Positions 54,856-64,000 of a stretch of DNA of 64,000 nt are shown here, in pieces. Every line of letters begins with the position of its first letter. Position 1 is the stretch's first letter. Where the stretch lies: assembly GCA_944389225.1 (NCBI GenBank), contig CALXLP010000004.1, positions 7,314 to 71,313 of the forward strand, read 5' to 3'. The translations under genes and the position numbers were made by a program. Source of the stretch: an uncultured Clostridia bacterium. Lineage in GTDB: Bacteria > Bacillota > Clostridia > TANB77 > CAG-508. Below the pieces are notes generated by a model. That model was not told the DNA's origin, did no database searches, and saw only the letters and a list, made by a program, of their open reading frames with translations.

Positions 54856-54866
54856 TTAAAAATTTA

Positions 54867-54897
54867 AAGGCAGATAATATTATATTATCTGCCTTTA
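54867..54897 (+). terminator. hairpin terminator after gyrB
   Basis: AAAGGCAGATAATA / TATTATCTGCCTTT 14-bp stem. Confidence 0.5.
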
Positions 54898-55345
54898 ATC
54901 AATAAAGCTAATAATAATCTCTGTTAAAACAAATATACATAATTTTCAAATCTAGCATATATTACTATATGCATAAACTCTCAACCACATATATTTATCA
55001 TTCACTCGACCATTAATACACTACTAACAACTAAATTCATCCAAGAAATGGACTAATATTAATGATTAAAAAATATAAGAATAATCTTAACTAAAATATA
55101 TTACATATTATTTTGCCGAATCCATATAATCTAAAAAATATAATAAAATAAAAATACAGCATACAAACAAGTAATATATTCACATCGCCGACATAGTACA
55201 ATATAATAAAACACCATACTACATCTTTGCTCAAATTATAATAAACATATAAAACATCTACTATAACTCTTTGTTTAACTATTATTAACCTTATATTTTT
55301 ATTATGCTCAAAAAGAAAAAAATTATACAACAAAAAAAATGTCGA

Positions 55346-55394
55346 ATATTGTCAACAACTTTTTATTGACAATAATTGTAAAATAATGTAAAAT
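55346..55394 (+). promoter_or_regulatory. near-consensus sigma-A promoter (TTGACA-17-TGnTAAAAT) with operator-like inverted repeat overlapping the -35
   Basis: -35 TTGACA 55366-55371; 17-nt spacer; extended -10 TGTAAAAT ending 55394; inverted repeat ATTGTCAA (55348-55355) / TTGACAAT (55366-55373). Confidence 0.55.
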
Positions 55395-55474
55395 GCTTTC
55401 AAAGGAAGTGATAAGAAATAAAAAATAAAACTGTCCAAGAATGGATTCCTATTTATCAAATTTTTAAAGATGGG

Positions 55475-58825: not shown

Positions 58826-58918
58826 AAAATTTATGAAAGATAAAAAATAGATCTGAAAAAATAATTGAAAACGAAGAAAGCTTCTTCAGAAATTTTATAA
58901 TAAATTTATTAATTAAAA

Positions 58919-61900
58919 GTTTACGAGAGAGAATATTAAGAATCTATACTATTATAAATAATGTAATAAAAAATATTAAAAATGAAAAGAAAAAAGTCTA
59001 CGCAAAAAAGGAAAAAATGAATTCAGAAAAATGATAAAGAATATAAATAAGAAAAAAAGAACAGTAAACATAAAACTAAAATAAAGTCAATGGAAAACAA
59101 TAATATAATTAAAAGAGAAAAAAGATTTTAATGCAAAAAGAAGAAGAGAAAAAAGTAAAGTAAAAAATAATATAAAAAAAGAATAATAAAATTACAAAAA
59201 AGAAATTAAAATAGAAATAAAAAAAATATTAAATAAAAAATAAAATAATAAGTAAAATAAAAAAATTATTAATAAAAAAAATAAATATAAAAATATAAAA
59301 AATTTAATAGAAAATAAAAAGAAAAAAATTATAAAAAAATAATTAATAATTAATTTAAAATTAATTATTAATTAAATAAATTATGAAAAAAAGAAAAAAT
59401 TGAAAAAAGAAAAAAAATAAATAATTATTTAATTATTTAAAATTTTGAATAGTGTATAAAAAGTAAAAAAAAAATCAAATAAACAAAAAAGATGAAATTA
59501 ATGAATATAATTTAGTTTTAAAAATAAATTAAAAGTTTACTATAAAAAATAAAAATATAAATATAAGAGTAAAAACAGAAAATAAAAATGTGAAAAAAGA
59601 ATTTTAAAAGACTACGCATAGAAGTAGAAAGAAAAAAATAAGTTAGATGAAAAAGAAATAGATATAGAATGTGCTTAGGTAGACATAAATTTAAATAAAG
59701 ATATAAAATTTCTTCTAAAAAACATGGAAAAGAATTCTAAAATTTGATTTATAAAAAAGTATATATACATATATATATGGAAAATAAAAAAATAAATAAA
59801 AGAAATTTAATAATAATATAGAAAAAATAATTAAAATGAAAAATATTAAATAAAATAAAAAAACATAATAAAAAAGAATAAATAAAAAATATTATAAAAT
59901 AAAAATATTTTTATAATATTAAATAAATAATTAAAAAAAATAATTAATATTAAATAAAAAATAATTAAGAATAAAAAATCAAAGCATTAAAATGAAAAAT
60001 AAAGTAATTTTATTTTTTATTAATATATTTTTATTATCAAAATATTAATAAATAAATAATAAAAAAAGAAAAAAATAAATAAAAATAAAAAAGTAAAATA
60101 AACAGATAAAAAAGAATAAAGTGTAGAAATAGAATTAGATTAAAAAATATATTTTTAAAGTTTACATGAAAGAAGAGAAATAAACAAAAAAGAAAGAATA
60201 ATTTTATAAAGAAACTTGAAATGTAAAATTGAAATACCTAGGCATAAAAGGAAAAGATCAAAAAGTATAAAATTAATAAAGTTTGAAATTAAAAAGATAC
60301 AAAGGAAACATAAAGTGAAAATAAAATAAGATAAAAACTTTATTTTGTATAAGAAAATGAAGTAGCAAAAGGATAAATTTAATAAAGAAATAATTAAAAT
60401 TAAAAATTAAATAAACAAAAAACAACGATTAAAAAGTTATAAAAAATAAAGTATAAAAAAATAATAAATCAAAAAATAAAATATAAAAAAATAAAATATA
60501 AAAAATAATAAATAATAAATAATATAAATATAAAAAAATAATATTAAATAATAATAAATAAATATTAAATTAAAATTAAAAAAAATAATAAAAAAATAAA
60601 ACATTAAAATAAAAAATAAGACGATTTTATTTTTTATTAATATATTTTTATTATTAAAAAATATTAATAAAACAAAAAATAATTTATAAAAAATAAATAA
60701 AATATAAAAAGAATAAAAATAAATAGCTAAAAGAAATTGAAGAAAAAAAACAGTTAAAGAGAGATCCTTAAGAAAAAAATAATTTAGAAGAGCATGAAAT
60801 AGAAGTTTACATGTAAAACAGAATGCAAAAAGAAAACATCAAGAAAAAAGGAAGAAAAAGTAAAAAAATAAATACGAAATACTTAGGCAAAAAAGAACAT
60901 GAGCTTAAAAATAGAAAATTGGATATGATGTAAAAACAGAAAAACCAAGTAAACATAAAATAAAAATAAAATTTGTAAATATAGTATAAAAATAGAGAAG
61001 AAGTGTAAAAAAATAAGGAAAAAATATTAATAGTTAATAGAAACAGGAAGAAGAATTTTTTAGAAAAATTTTCTGAAAAAATTTAGAATAAAAATATAAA
61101 ATAAAAAATCAATAATAAATAAATAGAAAATAAAAAAACAAGTAATATATAAAATAATAATAATAATAAAATAAAATTATTAAAACAAAAAATAAAGCAA
61201 TTTAATTTTTTAATAATATATTTTTATGATTAAAAATAGAAATATGATTTATAAATAATTAATAAAAATTATTTTTTAAAATTAATTAATAAAAATAAGT
61301 ACAAAAAATACCATAAAAAAAGAATTAAAAAATAGAAATAGAAAAAAATTAGAATAAAAGAAATAAGTATATTAAATATAATTAAAATGTGAAAAAGAAA
61401 AAAATCCCAAAAAAGTTGTAATAGAAAATACAAAATAAAGGTTTACAAAAAAAATAAATATTAGGAGGGGATAATATTTTTATAGGAAGAAAAGATAAAA
61501 AAATAAAAGGATAAACACCTAGGTAAAGAAGAAAAGAAAATAAATGTACATCAATAAAAATGAAAAAATAACATGTAAAACGAAGTAAACATAAAAACAA
61601 AATAAAGTTTTATAATAATGCAATTAAATAAAAAGAAAAAAATAAAAATTCAGAAAGATAATATAGAAAAAAGTAAAAAAAGAGAAAAAATATTAGAAGG
61701 AATTCTAAGAAAATATAAAAAAATAAATAATAAAAATTAAATATGAATTAATAATTAAATAAAAAATATGAAAAAATAAAATTATTAAAATAAAAAATAA
61801 AATAAATTAAATTTTTAATAATATATTTTTTATTAAAACTATATTATATAAATAATTAATAATAATTAAAAAATTAAAAATTAAAAATAATATAAAAATT

Positions 61901-63600
61901 TATATAAAATTCTAATTAATAATAAAAAATGAAAATTATGAAAAAATAAGAGGAAAAGAAAAAAGTAATGAAAAATAAGAAATATAGAAACGAGAAAAAA
62001 ATGAATCCTGTCAAATATTTATTTGAAATCAAAATACAAAATAAAAGTTTACAAAAAAAATAAAATAATAATAATAAAATATAAAAATATAAGCAATGAA
62101 AAGTAAAAAAAGAAGTAATAAAAGCCTAGGTAAAAAAGGAAAAGACAGAAAATAATAAAATTCAAACTAATTTAAAAAGTAAAAAAACAGAGTAAAAATA
62201 AAGCAAAAATAAAATCTATGTATTTATAGATAAAATAAAGAAAAAGGATTATTTATTTTTTTAGAATCTATAAAGAATAAAATAAATATAACTAAAATAT
62301 TAATAAATAGAAAAATAAAAATAAATAATAAAAGAGAATAATAAACAATTAATTATGAAAAATAAATAGTTAATAAAAAATAATAAAAAAATAAAATCGT
62401 TAAAATAAAAAATGAAGTAATTTAAATTTTTAATAATATAGTTTTATTATTTAAAATTTATAATAAAAATAATTTTAATTAAAAAATAATTAATAAAAAA
62501 ATTATTATTTTTAAATAAATAAATAATAATTTTTTATAAAATTAAAATAAATTAATATTAAAAATAAAAAAATTAGGAGAAAAAGTTTTTATAGATTCAA
62601 AGAGTTAAATAAAAAAGAAATAGGAAAACAAAAAAAGTTTTACATTCAAAAAATTGTGAAATAAAAGTTTACAAAAAGATAAAAAAATAAAATAGAAAAA
62701 GTAAAATTATAAAGGTTTATAATAAAAAACAGAAACATATCTACTTAGGTAATAAAGGAAAAGAAAAAATATATTTAAATAGAAAATAAAAAGAGAAGAA
62801 AATCAACAAGGTAAACATAAAATGGAAATAAAGTTACAATAAAATGAGAATATATCTTATAGAAAAGTGTATTGATCATAAAAATATGAATAAAAAGATA
62901 TTAAAAATAATCTTTGAAATAAATATGTTTATTAAAGAAATAATCTAATAATAAATAGAATTTAATAAAAAAATAAAAATAATTTAATTTAATAATAAAA
63001 AATAAAATTAAAATAAAAAAATTCATATATAAAATTATATATATGAGATTTTATAAATAAAAATAAAAAATAATAAATAATAATTAATAATATTTTTTTA
63101 TAAAAAATAAATTAATATTAATTAAAAATAATATATAAAAATAATTTTATTAATTTATATAAAAAATATAAATAAAAATATAAAAAATTTTAGAAATAGT
63201 TAAAAATAAAATAATAAAAATAAATGGCAATTTGTAAAGAAATAAAAATTAAATGAGAAAAATAAAAAAAGAAAAAGAAGATTTTATAAAAATATTTTAA
63301 AAGTTTACAAATAAAACATTAGAATCAAATAAAAAAAGAAAAAAATTCTAAAAAAAGAACTATAAAAAACGTCTGAAATACTACGTAAAAAAGGAAAAGA
63401 TAGAAAATGTAAAAAATAAGTTATTCATAAATTAACAAAAAGATAAGTGAACATAATTTGAAAATAAAATTTATAAAACTTTTAAGAAACTAGATAATTA
63501 CTATAGAAAAAGAATAAATTTTACTATGAAAATTAGAATTTTATTTAGTAAAAAATCTTGAATAATATAAAGCAAATAACAATAAAAAATAATTTAAAAA
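58919..63600 (+). repeat. tandem array of eight degenerate ~625-bp A-rich units (strongly C-depleted on plus strand)
   Basis: Unit anchors AGTTTAC at 58919, 59535, 60160, 60805, 61441, 62047, 62667 and 63303. Each is followed ~78 nt later by C(C/T)TAGG/CTACG-YAAAAAAGGAAAAGA, then ~55 nt later by GTAAACATAAAA...AAATAAAGTTT. Six of the eight units also carry an A/T hairpin plus T-tract motif AAG(A)CGATTTTATTTTTTATTAATATATTTTTATTA 360-470 nt downstream. Confidence 0.8.
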
Positions 63601-63625
63601 TAAATAAAAAAAGGTGGTAAATATA

Positions 63626-64000
63626 TGGAAATAAATAAAATTGAAAATGAAATAAATTTAAATAATGAAATAAAAAATACGAAAGAACAAATAAATTTTT
63701 TAGAAAGTACTTTAGGAAAAACTATTAATACAGCAATTGATATAGGAATAAGAGCTTTGTTACCTGATTTTATTGATGAACAAGTAATTAATATAAAAGA
63801 TAATTTATTAAATTATGGGTTAAAAGATGGAATTACAAAGACAATTGATGATGCAATTGATATAGGTAAAAGTGCCATAGGAATTTTTACAGGAAATTTT
63901 GAAAATGTTTCACAAATGCAGAATGCTGTTCAGGCAGGAGGCTTAATAGATGGAATATCAACTTTATTAGATACTGTTGTAGATAAAGTAAATAAAAAAG
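63626..64000 (+). CDS. hypothetical protein, N-terminal part (runs off window end)
   Basis: RBS AAAAAGGTGG 8 nt upstream of ATG; open for 125 codons to the window edge (MEINKIENEINLNNEIKNTKEQINFLESTLGKTINTAIDIGIRALLPDF...). Confidence 0.5.

What the first reader, a model, noticed from the sequence alone, without database searches (positions are those of the whole stretch)
54856..64000. gyrB is not followed by gyrA: a very low-GC foreign block is inserted downstream of gyrB
Across Firmicutes the gene order dnaA-dnaN-(yaaA)-recF-(remB)-gyrB-gyrA is nearly universal. Here gyrB ends at 54855 and the next 9 kb contain no gyrA. Instead there is a 500-bp G-poor spacer, a strong promoter with an operator-like inverted repeat, a VirB4-like ATPase gene, a degenerate receiver/ParA-like ORF and a 4.8-kb A-rich tandem array. 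Codon usage is far more extreme than in the core genes (nearly pure K/N/I/E). This looks like an inserted, decaying mobile or plasmid-derived segment that has separated gyrB from gyrA (or gyrA lies elsewhere). It is also a second, independent T4SS remnant in the same window.
Basis: partly seen in the sequence, partly recalled or inferred. Interest (0 to 1): 0.65.

Follow-up and report, generated by a model that had tools for sequence, protein, structure and literature searches.

The report
Ancient gyrB–gyrA island, hidden RNA gene
The DNA after gyrB is not a recent foreign insert but an old island inherited by a whole group of uncultured gut Clostridia; it holds an apparently undescribed 400-base structured RNA gene, a conserved piece of a DNA-transfer machine and a species-specific stretch of repeats, and gyrA sits 1.4 kb past the window's end.

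Summary
gyrA starts about 1.4 kb beyond the window end. The intervening block is present in nearly every relative with GyrB at least 80% identical (about 25 species genomes and about 50 metagenome contigs).

The "G-poor spacer" is a gene for a ~395-nt structured RNA on the minus strand (54,902-55,294). It has 127 consensus pairs, 80 of them with compensatory changes, its own conserved promoter and a terminator shared with gyrB. It matches no Rfam family.

Next comes a four-gene cassette behind a conserved operator-bearing promoter: a TrsD-like protein, a CD1110-family VirB4 ATPase, a receiver/ParA-like protein and a novel all-helical 239-aa protein. The ATPase is under purifying selection as strong as RecF (dN/dS 0.065 against 0.086) and has the same GC content.

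Only the ParA-like gene is decaying in this species. The 4.8-kb, 11% GC, eight-unit array is confined to this species and its sister. It grew by tandem duplication of that gene's 3' end plus the downstream spacer.

The functions of the RNA and of the cassette are inferred, not shown.

The parts
52927..54855 (+). gyrB (642 aa), the left border of the island
   Evidence: Pfam DNA_gyraseB, Toprim, HATPase_c and DNA_gyraseB_C. The identical protein is on 12 or more metagenome contigs.
54864..54898 (.). Bidirectional terminator hairpin shared by gyrB (+) and the RNA gene (-)
   Evidence: The terminator scan finds a 16-pair stem followed by a T-run on the minus strand. The stem covaries strongly in 23 species (columns 20-56).
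54902..55294 (-). Conserved structured non-coding RNA, about 395 nt. A closing helix H1 (55294-55277 with 54919-54902) encloses these hairpins: H2 55269-55233, H4 55225-55190, H5/H6 55181-55094, H7-H9 55086-55008 and H12/H13 54999-54928.
   Evidence: DNA is conserved at 65-84% over 440-490 nt in 28 or more species, with no conserved ORF. RNAalifold gives -103 kcal/mol and 126-127 pairs on the minus strand, against -3 on the plus strand and -0.2 for shuffled columns. 97.7% of cells are paired, 80 of 127 pairs show compensatory changes, and 0 of 500 shuffles reach the observed values. The single-sequence z-score is -7.7. There is no Rfam match.
55301..55330 (-). Promoter of the RNA gene: -35 TTGTAT (55330-55325), an 18-nt spacer, -10 CATAAT (55306-55301)
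   Evidence: TTGAAT/TTGTAT-N18-(C/T)ATAAT is conserved at the same place in 23 species.
55340..55394 (+). Cassette promoter with operator-like repeats: TGTCGA-N4-TGTCAA-N10-TTGACA-N17-TAAAAT
   Evidence: Promoter scan 11 of 12. The same architecture is conserved upstream of ORF1 in 12 or more species. It is unique in the window.
55418..55996 (+). TrsD/TraD-like protein, equal to the N-terminal domain of VirB4 (192 aa from an ATA start; the first ATG is at 55475)
   Evidence: Pfam TraC-like PF26593. NCBIfam hits to CD1110-family VirB4 positions 1-179 and to TrsD/TraD. Relatives start 15-20 codons upstream of the window's ATG; here an ATA follows AGGAAGTGA. dN/dS is 0.27.
55999..57822 (+). VirB4-type ATPase body (607 aa from an ATA start, 7 nt after GGAGG)
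   Evidence: Pfam P-loop_TraG, AAA_10 and DUF87. NCBIfam CD1110-family VirB4, 292 bits. Walker A GTSGAGKS and Walker B YLDE are intact. Relatives have their own RBS plus ATG or GTG. It is 63-91% identical across the clade. dN/dS is 0.065.
57815..58825 (+). Receiver-like plus ParA/MinD-like protein (336 aa), degenerating in this species: the P-loop is lost and the C-terminus truncated
   Evidence: Alignment of 15 species shows G..GVGK[ST] in relatives against IYGKDKIDKK here. Relatives hit ParA/MinD models. The gene has 9.7% GC and dN/dS 0.39. It is absent in L024.
58847..63624 (+). Eight-unit tandem array (units begin at 58847, 59463, 60088, 60733, 61369, 61975, 62595 and 63231; the last is partial), 11.7% GC and A-rich. 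Each unit has three conserved boxes (AAAGTTTACA; CTACG/CCTAGG-TAAAAAAGGAAAAGA; AACATAAAA.AAAATAAA). Five units also carry an AT-hairpin motif.
   Evidence: Repeats were found. Units u1 and u2 keep the ancestral C-terminal codons of the ParA-like gene. The sister species L012 has 5 units of about 690 bp with the same boxes. Other species have no array. Box identity is 0.77-0.87 against 0.46-0.50 between boxes. There is no consensus RNA fold. Promoter-like sites are at chance level.
63625..64000 (+). Start of the 239-aa all-helical protein (it continues to window-equivalent 64344). Beyond the window lie an Xre-type HTH (64399-64737, -), a 93-aa ORF (64998-65279) and gyrA (65421-67880).
   Evidence: Gene table and ORFs of L001; the offset is 47814. 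The family has 396 clusters at 50% identity and no Pfam, NCBIfam or PDB match. The AF2 model has pLDDT 93 and nine helices, with no fold match. dN/dS is 0.10.

Best explanation
The 10.6 kb between gyrB and gyrA is an old, vertically inherited island of a clade of uncultured, low-GC gut Clostridia. This clade includes a MAG named Candidatus Scatovivens. The island is not a recent insertion. It has three layers.

(1) An autonomous gene for a ~395-nt, highly structured RNA lies directly after gyrB on the opposite strand. It has a sigma-A-type promoter and shares a bidirectional terminator with gyrB. I infer a stable trans-acting RNA, probably the scaffold of an RNA-protein complex. Its function is unknown.

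(2) A four-gene cassette of conjugation ancestry sits behind a conserved, operator-bearing promoter. It encodes a TrsD-like N-domain protein, a CD1110-family VirB4 ATPase, a receiver/ParA-like protein and a novel helical 239-aa protein. The ATPase and the 239-aa protein are kept by purifying selection. I infer that the cassette was co-opted. Most likely it is an extra ATPase/adaptor module for the relaxase-less, pilin-bearing T4SS that is resident next to the replication origin in the same genomes.

(3) In this species and its sister only, the ParA-like gene has lost its P-loop and C-terminus. Its 3' end plus the downstream spacer has been tandemly amplified into a 4.8-kb, 11% GC array. The array is non-coding and evolves at about the neutral rate.

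Shown: the anatomy, the conservation, the covariation and the selection. Inferred: transcription of the RNA, and every function.
For: Position of gyrA: the 819-aa GyrA gene lies at L001 17607-20066, which is window 65421.

Ancestry:
- TrsD-like, VirB4, (ParA-like) and orf239 lie between gyrB and gyrA in about 20 GTDB species and in most of 50 metagenome loci.
- In the GyrB tree the clade is monophyletic and the cassette is already present in the basal branch L044. L026 and L041 lack the cassette and are nested within the clade.

Selection and composition:
- dN/dS is 0.065 for VirB4, 0.10 for orf239, 0.086 for RecF and 0.033 for GyrB.
- VirB4 has 22.3% GC, the same as recF.
- The Walker motifs are intact.

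Gene layout:
- The two-ORF layout is ancestral, with separate ribosome-binding sites and starts in relatives, and matches TrsD/TraD and CD1110 models.
- The conserved promoter and operator are shown.

RNA:
- Conservation, no ORF, strand-specific fold and covariation statistics.
- Conserved promoter and terminator.
- No Rfam hit and no tmRNA.
- It is independent of the cassette: L026 is gyrB-RNA-gyrA, and L144 has the RNA beside minD, rodA and dus.

Resident T4SS:
- VirB2-type pilins, a second VirB4 and a 1230-aa cell-wall hydrolase are present, with no relaxase or VirD4 hit.
- The second VirB4 is 88-99% identical in more than 120 clusters and syntenic next to soj-spo0J in another species.

Array:
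- It is lineage-specific.
- It derives from the gene's 3' end, and a parallel two-copy duplication exists in L028.
- Its SNP density is about 6/kb, against 1-1.6/kb in gyrB and VirB4.
- One strain lacks a unit.
Against: - There are no expression data. Transcription of the RNA is inferred from the promoter, the terminator and strand-specific G-U pairing.
- The RNA has been lost in several lineages (an internal deletion in L024; absent after gyrB in L039, L040, L041 and L044), so it is not indispensable.
- The cassette has no neighbouring VirB6, VirB8 or hydrolase genes, and no shared operator was found with the resident T4SS cluster. The functional link to that cluster is a guess.
- The array's three boxes keep 77-87% identity and fixed spacing, while the sequence between them is at random-level identity (46-50%). 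A purely neutral 'junk' model does not explain this.
- The phylogeny is a neighbour-joining tree of one protein.
- Many relatives are fragmentary MAG contigs.
Confidence: 0.8

Rival explanations
1. One reading: a recently inserted mobile or plasmid-derived segment, now decaying, split gyrB from gyrA in this genome.
For: The genes are of T4SS ancestry. The ParA-like ORF is degenerate and the array is extremely AT-rich. The interval does accept extra genes in some lineages: a two-component system in L038/L031 and an Xre HTH plus a 93-aa ORF here.
Against: The block is shared by the whole clade in the same place. There is strong purifying selection on VirB4 and orf239. VirB4 has the same GC content as recF. 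The promoter is conserved. No integrase or relaxase was found. The closest plasmid VirB4 is only 35% identical.
Confidence: 0.04
2. The array is functional DNA: a tandem set of binding sites, centromere-like or a titration array, for a DNA-binding protein of the locus. Candidates are the Xre-type HTH that occurs only in the two array-bearing species, the 239-aa protein, or a partner of the ParA-like protein.
For: Three boxes are conserved at 0.77-0.87 identity with spacing fixed to within 1-2 nt across 13 units in two species, while the inter-box sequence is at random level. Box 2 is palindromic in both versions (TACGTA and CCTAGG). The HTH gene co-occurs with the array and is strongly conserved (dN/dS 0.046). 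The array lies next to a ParA-like gene.
Against: The ParA-like protein has lost its P-loop in exactly these species. Box 1 is simply surviving codons of the gene's C-terminus. Copy number varies between strains. SNP density is near neutral. Other species have no array.
Confidence: 0.2
3. The conserved 400-nt element is a divergent copy of a known RNA (RNase P RNA, 6S, SRP, OLE, ROOL or similar) that Rfam models miss because of the extreme AT content.
For: Its size (~400 nt) and a closing helix joining the 5' and 3' ends recall RNase P RNA. A conserved UAGUCC resembles the P4 'AGUCC'. This is a recollection, not a test.
Against: cmscan against 4227 families at E up to 10 gives only spurious hits on the terminator hairpin. 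ARAGORN finds no tmRNA. The predicted architecture (five hairpin domains on one junction) and the conserved single-stranded motifs do not match those families as I recall them.
Confidence: 0.07
4. The conserved element acts as DNA (for example a gyrase or nucleoid-protein site, or part of the origin region) rather than as RNA.
For: It lies between the two gyrase genes, 6 kb from dnaA. No transcript has been shown.
Against: Compensatory changes keep 127 pairs. Many pairs are G-U on the minus strand, which would be C-A mismatches on the plus strand or in a DNA cruciform; the plus strand folds to only -3 kcal/mol. A conserved promoter and terminator bracket it. In L144 it also occurs away from gyrB.
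Confidence: 0.03

Closest known systems
MPF-FATA (Gram-positive) conjugation ATPases: CD1110-family VirB4, and the TrsD/TraD family named for a separate small conjugative-transfer protein
   Same: The domain content and order match: a TraC-like N-domain ORF followed by a P-loop_TraG/AAA_10 ATPase. The Walker motifs are intact. The best NCBIfam models are NF045971 and NF041427.
   Different: It is not on a plasmid or ICE. No VirB6, VirB8, hydrolase, coupling-protein or relaxase gene is next to it. It is fixed between gyrB and gyrA across a clade. It is only 26% identical to the other VirB4 of the same genome and at most 35% to any PLSDB plasmid. Each half scores below the family cut-off on its own (292 and 44 bits against 325).
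Chromosomal, relaxase-less, origin-proximal T4SS of Patescibacteria (Quinonero-Coronel et al. 2025, PMC12102498)
   Same: There is an MPF-FATA-like VirB4 with VirB2-like pilins and no relaxase. It is chromosomal, close to dnaA, dnaN and rnpA, and widely conserved in a low-GC lineage. This suggests co-option for something other than conjugation.
   Different: The phylum is different (Bacillota, Clostridia). Here there are two separate VirB4 loci, and the one under study is an orphan cassette with a ParA-like gene and a novel helical protein. Homology to the Patescibacteria proteins was not tested.
TadZ/CpaE-type and ParA/MinD-type positioning ATPases
   Same: Relatives of the 336-aa ORF have an N-terminal receiver-like domain followed by a deviant Walker A G..GVGK[ST] ParA/MinD domain.
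   Different: The window's copy has lost the P-loop and the last ~35 residues. No Tad pilus genes are adjacent. No ParB-like partner is recognisable. The N-domain matches no Pfam model.
Large structured bacterial ncRNAs of unknown or recently found function (OLE, GOLLD, ROOL, raiA motif)
   Same: It is several hundred nucleotides long, multi-domain, supported by abundant covariation, and is a stand-alone gene with its own promoter and terminator.
   Different: It matches none of these Rfam families in sequence or structure. It is extremely AU-rich (22% G+C) with many G-U pairs. As far as seen it is confined to one clade of gut Clostridia, almost always convergent with gyrB.
Tandem arrays of gene fragments produced by unequal recombination in AT-rich genomes
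   Same: Units lie head to tail and contain the 3' end of the upstream gene. Copy number differs between strains and species. One recent duplicate pair exists (v3-v4, 80%).
   Different: Most units are diverged to saturation yet keep three short boxes at fixed spacing. This is not expected of plain pseudogene arrays.

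Membership tests
VirB4/TraC-type T4SS ATPase (CD1110 family) | P-loop ATPase domain with Walker A and B motifs that matches the family models | tested here: met
   Pfam P-loop_TraG 1e-19 and AAA_10 2e-15. NCBIfam NF045971 9.8e-87. GTSGAGKS and YLDE are present.
VirB4/TraC-type T4SS ATPase (CD1110 family) | The whole protein scores above the curated cut-off (325 bits) as one polypeptide | tested here: not met
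   The protein is split into two ORFs scoring 44.4 and 291.9 bits. The split is ancestral in the clade.
Functional conjugative T4SS locus (ICE or plasmid) | Adjacent channel and wall components (VirB6-like, VirB8/TcpC-like, hydrolase), a coupling protein and a relaxase | tested here: not met
   The neighbours are a ParA-like gene, a novel helical protein, an RNA gene and the gyrase genes. None of these functions lies in the island.
Recently integrated mobile element | Patchy presence among close relatives, foreign composition, an integrase or flanking repeats | tested here: not met
   It is present clade-wide at one site. VirB4 GC equals recF GC. No integrase was seen.
ParA/MinD ATPase | Deviant Walker A (GxxGxGK[ST]) | tested here: not met
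   The window protein has IYGKDKIDKK. Relatives keep G..GVGK[ST]. Relatives hit ParA/MinD models but the window protein hits none.
Any Rfam 15 RNA family | A covariance-model match to the ~395-nt element | tested here: not met
   There were no hits at E up to 1 on 10.8 kb. At E up to 10 on 501 nt there were only chance hits on the terminator hairpin.
Structured non-coding RNA gene (generic) | Conserved secondary structure supported by compensatory changes, strand-specific, with no ORF | tested here: met
   80 of 127 pairs have double changes and 97.7% of cells are paired, against 35-45% in slid controls. The plus strand does not fold. No conserved ORF exists.
Structured non-coding RNA gene (generic) | Evidence of transcription | not testable with these tools
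   Only a conserved promoter-like TTGAAT-N18-CATAAT and a terminator support it.
Relaxase-less origin-proximal T4SS (Patescibacteria type) | Chromosomal near dnaA, VirB2-like pilins, no relaxase, conserved across the lineage | tested here: met
   This applies to the cluster at 21-36.5 kb, not to the island itself. Pilins and VirB4 were found with no relaxase or VirD4 hit among the ORFs scanned. Conservation and synteny are shown. Not all small ORFs were scanned.

The most novel reading that the evidence does not exclude
The element at 54,902-55,294 (minus strand) is a new class of large structured RNA. It is about 400 nt, has five helical domains closed by an 18-bp helix, and is only 22% G+C. 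It is specific to a family-level clade of uncultured gut Clostridia and almost always sits between the two gyrase genes. It works as a stable RNA-protein scaffold or regulator. The flanking cassette is a co-opted module of a resident, non-conjugative T4SS, comparable to what was proposed for Patescibacteria.
Probability: 0.55. Interest if true: 0.75.

Novelty: new variant of a known kind. Interest (0 to 1): 0.62.

Why it matters
- It corrects a tempting misreading. Extreme AT content and T4SS genes next to core genes look like a decaying insertion, but comparative data show an old, selected arrangement.
- It yields a well-supported candidate for a new large structured RNA. Such RNAs are rare, and each has so far led to new biology. 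Its promoter, terminator, helices and 70 or more homologues are defined, so it is directly testable.
- Together with the origin-proximal, pilin-bearing, relaxase-less T4SS in the same window, it suggests that a group of abundant but uncultured gut Clostridia has domesticated conjugation machinery. This parallels the Patescibacteria case.
- It includes a novel helical protein family (396 clusters at 50% identity) and a second VirB4 of unknown role.
- The array shows how a dying gene can seed kilobases of AT-rich repeats that break metagenome assemblies.

Tried and rejected
- Hidden coding in the array. Six-frame translations show stops in all frames. The minus-strand 'MFT...' mini-ORF is intact in only one of 8 units. 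A profile of the ParA-like family against the translated array scores no better than shuffles.
- The array as an RNA. There is no consensus fold for 13 unit cores and no Rfam hit.
- The array as a promoter array. There are 47 promoter-like sites against 48.9 expected, with none at a fixed unit position.
- The AT-hairpin motif as a strong terminator. Its folds are weak, at -3.5 to -8.8 kcal/mol with z from +0.5 to -2.4.
- A programmed frameshift joining the two VirB4 ORFs. The frame offset varies among species (0, +1, +2) and relatives have their own starts.
- A shared operator between the cassette and the resident T4SS cluster. One TGTCGA lies upstream of that cluster in the window but none in another species, so this was dropped.
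- A protein-coding reading of the 'spacer'. There is no conserved frame on either strand.
- The RNA on phage contigs. There were 0 matches.
- Structure-aware search for the RNA's 3' domain near gyrB in outgroups. Nothing was found.
- Literature. No paper was found that links gyrB/gyrA with VirB4 in Clostridia or that describes this RNA. The RNA may still be among the 3161 unnamed candidates of PMC8040213, which I could not check.

Full report
**1. What is in the window.**

The window is low-GC (25.6%) and carries the replication-origin gene set:
- rnpA-yidC-jag on the minus strand;
- dnaA at 48276-49625, dnaN at 49948-51066, recF at 51820-52914 and gyrB at 52927-54855.

After gyrB there is indeed no gyrA within the window.
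- a G-poor stretch (A260 C83 G37 T182);
- a near-consensus promoter at 55366-55394 overlapped by TGTCGA/TGTCAA/TTGACA repeats;
- a VirB4-type ATPase;
- a 336-aa K/N/I-rich ORF;
- a tandem array of eight units of 606-645 bp at 58847-63624 with 11.7% GC.

**2. Where gyrA is.**

Exact-protein look-ups found the same locus on 12-16 metagenome contigs. One of them, L001, is 99.98% identical to the window over 16 kb, with an offset of 47814. After the array it continues with:
- the 239-aa ORF that starts at 63625;
- an Xre-type HTH gene on the minus strand;
- a 93-aa ORF;
- an 819-aa GyrA at window-equivalent 65421-67880.

So gyrA starts 1.4 kb beyond the window edge. The array is assembled the same way in at least seven independent assemblies, so it is real. 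One contig, L006, has one unit fewer.

**3. Insertion or ancestral?**

A scan of one genome per GTDB species with GyrB returned 80 loci. I compared the island's proteins against them by tblastn.

- Every relative with GyrB at least 80% identical and a long enough contig (about 20 species) has, in this order, gyrB, the TrsD-like ORF, the VirB4 ORF, usually the ParA-like ORF, the 239-aa ORF and gyrA.
- A further 50 metagenome loci show the same order.
- In a GyrB neighbour-joining tree these genomes form one clade. The cassette is present in its basal branch. The two members without it (L026, L041) are nested inside, which makes their absences secondary losses.
- The sister group (GyrB about 70% identical) has neither the cassette nor a gyrA within 10 kb.
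- Among more distant Clostridia, gyrA is adjacent in roughly half, 1-5 kb away in some, and absent within 5-10 kb in about a third.

That test is met.

**4. The cassette is maintained, not decaying.**

I compared this species with its sister species L012 (GyrB 97% identical).

| Gene | dN/dS |
|---|---|
| VirB4 | 0.065 |
| 239-aa protein | 0.10 |
| RecF | 0.086 |
| GyrB | 0.033 |
| TrsD-like ORF | 0.27 |
| N-half of the ParA-like ORF | 0.39 |

- The VirB4 gene has 22.3% GC, the same as recF. Its Walker A and B motifs are intact.
- The apparent break in VirB4 is the normal layout of this lineage. The N-domain (TraC-like; it matches TrsD/TraD and positions 1-179 of the CD1110-family model) is a separate ORF. 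The ATPase body has its own Shine-Dalgarno site and start in all relatives. The relative frame of the two ORFs varies, which excludes a programmed frameshift.
- In this species both ORFs lack ATG, GTG and TTG at the conserved position. Each has an ATA 6-7 nt after a strong Shine-Dalgarno site (55418 and 55999). Gene callers therefore truncated both.
- The promoter with its TGTCGA-N4-TGTC(A/G)A-N10-TTGACA-N17-TAAAAT architecture is conserved in at least 12 species.
- The closest plasmid-borne VirB4 is 35% identical and sits in an ordinary conjugation cluster.

**5. The other two cassette proteins.**

The 336-aa ORF:
- It belongs to a family with an N-terminal receiver-like domain and a ParA/MinD domain, with G..GVGK[ST] in most species. 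Relatives hit ParA/MinD models.
- In this species and L012 the P-loop is lost (IYGKDKIDKK), the last ~35 residues are missing and the GC content is 9.7%.
- L024 has lost the gene altogether.

The 239-aa protein:
- It defines a family of 396 clusters at 50% identity, with no Pfam, NCBIfam, PHROG-function or PDB sequence match.
- Even members only 28-30% identical sit between the ParA-like gene, or VirB4, and gyrA.
- AlphaFold2 with a 57-sequence alignment gives a confident nine-helix model (pLDDT 93, pTM 0.84).
- The model has no structural neighbour in PDB or BFVD.

**6. The "spacer" is a structured-RNA gene.**

I was calibrating non-coding divergence between the two sister species when the stretch after gyrB stood out, at 84% identity over 439 nt.

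Conservation and coding:
- It is conserved (65-84% over 440-490 nt) directly after gyrB in 28 or more species.
- It has no conserved reading frame.

Structure:
- On the plus strand only the gyrB terminator folds.
- On the minus strand RNAalifold gives -103 kcal/mol with 126-127 pairs, against -0.2 +/- 0.6 for column-shuffled alignments.
- Pair counting on 23 species gives the figures below. No shuffle out of 500 reaches any observed measure.

| Measure | Observed | Controls |
|---|---|---|
| Cells paired | 97.7% | 84.8% shuffled; 35-45% with partners slid |
| Pairs with changes on both sides | 80 of 127 | not given here |
| Compensated cells | 323 | 33-51 (slid controls) |

- Many pairs are G-U, so only the minus-strand transcript can fold.
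- The window's sequence alone folds with a z-score of -7.7.
- The model is an 18-bp closing helix (55294-55277 with 54919-54902) around five hairpin domains.

Signals at the ends:
- A TTGAAT/TTGTAT-N18-(C/T)ATAAT promoter is conserved just upstream on the minus strand.
- The hairpin at 54898-54864, followed by a T-run on the minus strand, ends it.

Identity and range:
- Rfam 15 has no match and ARAGORN finds no tmRNA.
- The gene is single-copy in the window.
- It is absent near gyrB in outgroups, by nhmmer and by a covariance model of its 3' domain.
- It is absent from viral contigs.
- It is independent of the cassette. L026 has gyrB-RNA-gyrA with no cassette, and L144 has the RNA next to HD-domain, mazF, dus, rodA, minE and minD genes.
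- It has been lost in a few lineages. L024 keeps only the two fused ends of the closing helix.

**7. The array.**

Distribution:
- Only this species and L012 have it; L012 has five units of about 690 bp.
- In other species the interval between VirB4 and the 239-aa gene is 1.0-1.5 kb and is filled by an intact ParA-like ORF. L043 has an extra 1.75 kb without clear repeats.

Origin:
- Units u1 and u2 still spell the ancestral C-terminal motif of the ParA-like protein, YNLIINKNFKF...EY.KII. It lies out of frame, just after the present stop codon.
- Box 1 (AAAGTTTAC) is the K-F-I/T codons of that motif.
- L028 has an independent two-copy duplication of the same gene end.
- The array therefore arose by tandem duplication of the gene's 3' end plus the downstream spacer.

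What it is not:
- It has stops in all frames.
- It has no consensus RNA structure.
- Promoter-like sites are at chance level.
- Its SNP density is about 6/kb, against 1-1.6/kb in gyrB and VirB4, which is roughly the synonymous rate.

What a neutral model does not explain:
- Three boxes keep 77-87% identity and spacing fixed to 1-2 nt across 13 units of two species.
- The sequence between them is at random-level identity (46-50%; expectation 44%).
- No orthologous unit pairs can be recognised between the species.

A second motif, AAAAATAAGnCnATTTTATTTTTTnnTAATATA, occurs in five units and twice in the dnaN-recF spacer. That is 7 copies against 0.02 expected. It is also found in L012, L013 and L016. 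It folds only weakly.

**8. Context: a resident T4SS.**

- On the minus strand at about 21-36.5 kb the window has several VirB2/TrbC-type pilin genes, a second VirB4 (26% identical to the cassette's) and a 1230-aa NlpC/P60 + M15 hydrolase. There is no relaxase or coupling-protein hit among the ORFs scanned.
- This second VirB4 is 88-99% identical in more than 120 clusters at 90% identity.
- In another species the cluster lies in the same synteny after mnmE-mnmG-rsmG-soj-spo0J-DUF4446.
- This is not a remnant. It is a conserved, origin-proximal, apparently non-conjugative T4SS, much like the one described for Patescibacteria (PMC12102498).

I infer, without direct evidence, that the gyrB-gyrA cassette supplies an accessory ATPase/adaptor module to this machine. 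No shared operator was found.

**9. Verdict.**

- Observation: partly confirmed.
- Interpretation: the T4SS ancestry and the decay of one gene are right. "Recent, decaying insertion" is wrong.
- The interesting results are an apparently undescribed ~395-nt structured RNA with very strong covariation support, and a clade-wide, selected, T4SS-derived cassette with a novel helical protein.
- Functions remain inferred.

Noticed in passing
window 21000-36500 (minus strand); L096 6431-21200: A conserved, origin-proximal T4SS cluster with 3-4 VirB2/TrbC-like pilin genes (34883-35269, 35301-35732 and others), a TraC-like ORF, a second VirB4 (31202-33145) and a 1230-aa NlpC/P60 + M15 hydrolase (23369-27061). 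No relaxase or VirD4 hit. Its VirB4 is 88-99% identical across more than 120 protein clusters, and the cluster is syntenic in another species. It resembles the co-opted T4SS of Patescibacteria.
   Followed up: partly
window 55418 and 55999: Both cassette ORFs seem to start at ATA, 6-7 nt after strong Shine-Dalgarno sites, where relatives have ATG or GTG. L012, L020 and L024 show ATA or ATT at the same place. Gene callers truncated both genes. This may be a wider habit of these extremely AT-rich genomes.
   Followed up: partly
window 51067-51819: The dnaN-recF spacer is 750 bp at 13% GC, with no yaaA-like ORF. It begins with two DnaA-box-like sequences (TTATCCAC at 51104, TGTGGATAA at 51128). 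It carries two copies, 115 nt apart (51574 and 51689), of the same AT-hairpin motif found in the array. It has the highest SNP density of the locus (21/kb).
   Followed up: partly
window 51566-51625, 51681-51740, 59992-60048: The AT-hairpin motif can be read as an 18-19-codon mini-ORF (MKIKNKAILFFGNIILYLK and similar), with start and stop codons in three copies. The frame is broken in other copies and in L012, so it is probably not coding.
   Followed up: no
L038 12604-15452; L031 11926-15832: In two related species an OmpR-type response regulator and a 707-aa histidine kinase are inserted between the RNA gene and the cassette. The gyrB-gyrA interval is a recurrent landing site for extra genes.
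   Followed up: partly
L144 815-1272 (minus strand): One metagenome contig has a full-length copy of the RNA away from gyrB. It is followed by genes for an HD-domain protein, a MazF-like toxin, Dus, RodA, MinE and MinD.
   Followed up: partly
L024 11980-12050: This relative keeps only the two arms of the RNA's closing helix fused together, the footprint of an internal deletion. It has also lost the ParA-like gene but keeps VirB4 and the 239-aa gene.
   Followed up: partly
L028 15784-16244: An independent two-copy tandem duplication of the 3' end of the ParA-like gene plus its downstream spacer. The same kind of event that built the window's array has happened more than once.
   Followed up: partly
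L001 16585-16923 (-) and 17184-17465 (+), window-equivalent 64399-65279: An Xre-family HTH gene (dN/dS 0.046 against L012) and a 93-aa ORF lie between the 239-aa gene and gyrA. The HTH gene was found only in this species and in array-bearing L012; the 93-aa ORF was found only in this species' contigs (the L012 locus ends just past the HTH gene).
   Followed up: partly
L001 20445-21011 (minus strand), just after gyrA: A DnaC/DnaI/IstB-like AAA+ ATPase gene (NCBIfam PRK06835, 1.8e-56) converges on gyrA.
   Followed up: no
window 36658-36747 and 36808-36899 (minus strand): Two tRNA-Ser genes (GCT and TGA anticodons) lie between a PMT_2 glycosyltransferase gene and the first pilin gene of the T4SS cluster.
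   Followed up: no
L046, L048, L049, L062 (sister clade, GyrB 69-72% identical): These genomes have neither the RNA, the cassette nor any gyrA within 10 kb downstream of gyrB. The gyrB-gyrA linkage was already broken, or broken differently, in the nearest outgroup.
   Followed up: partly
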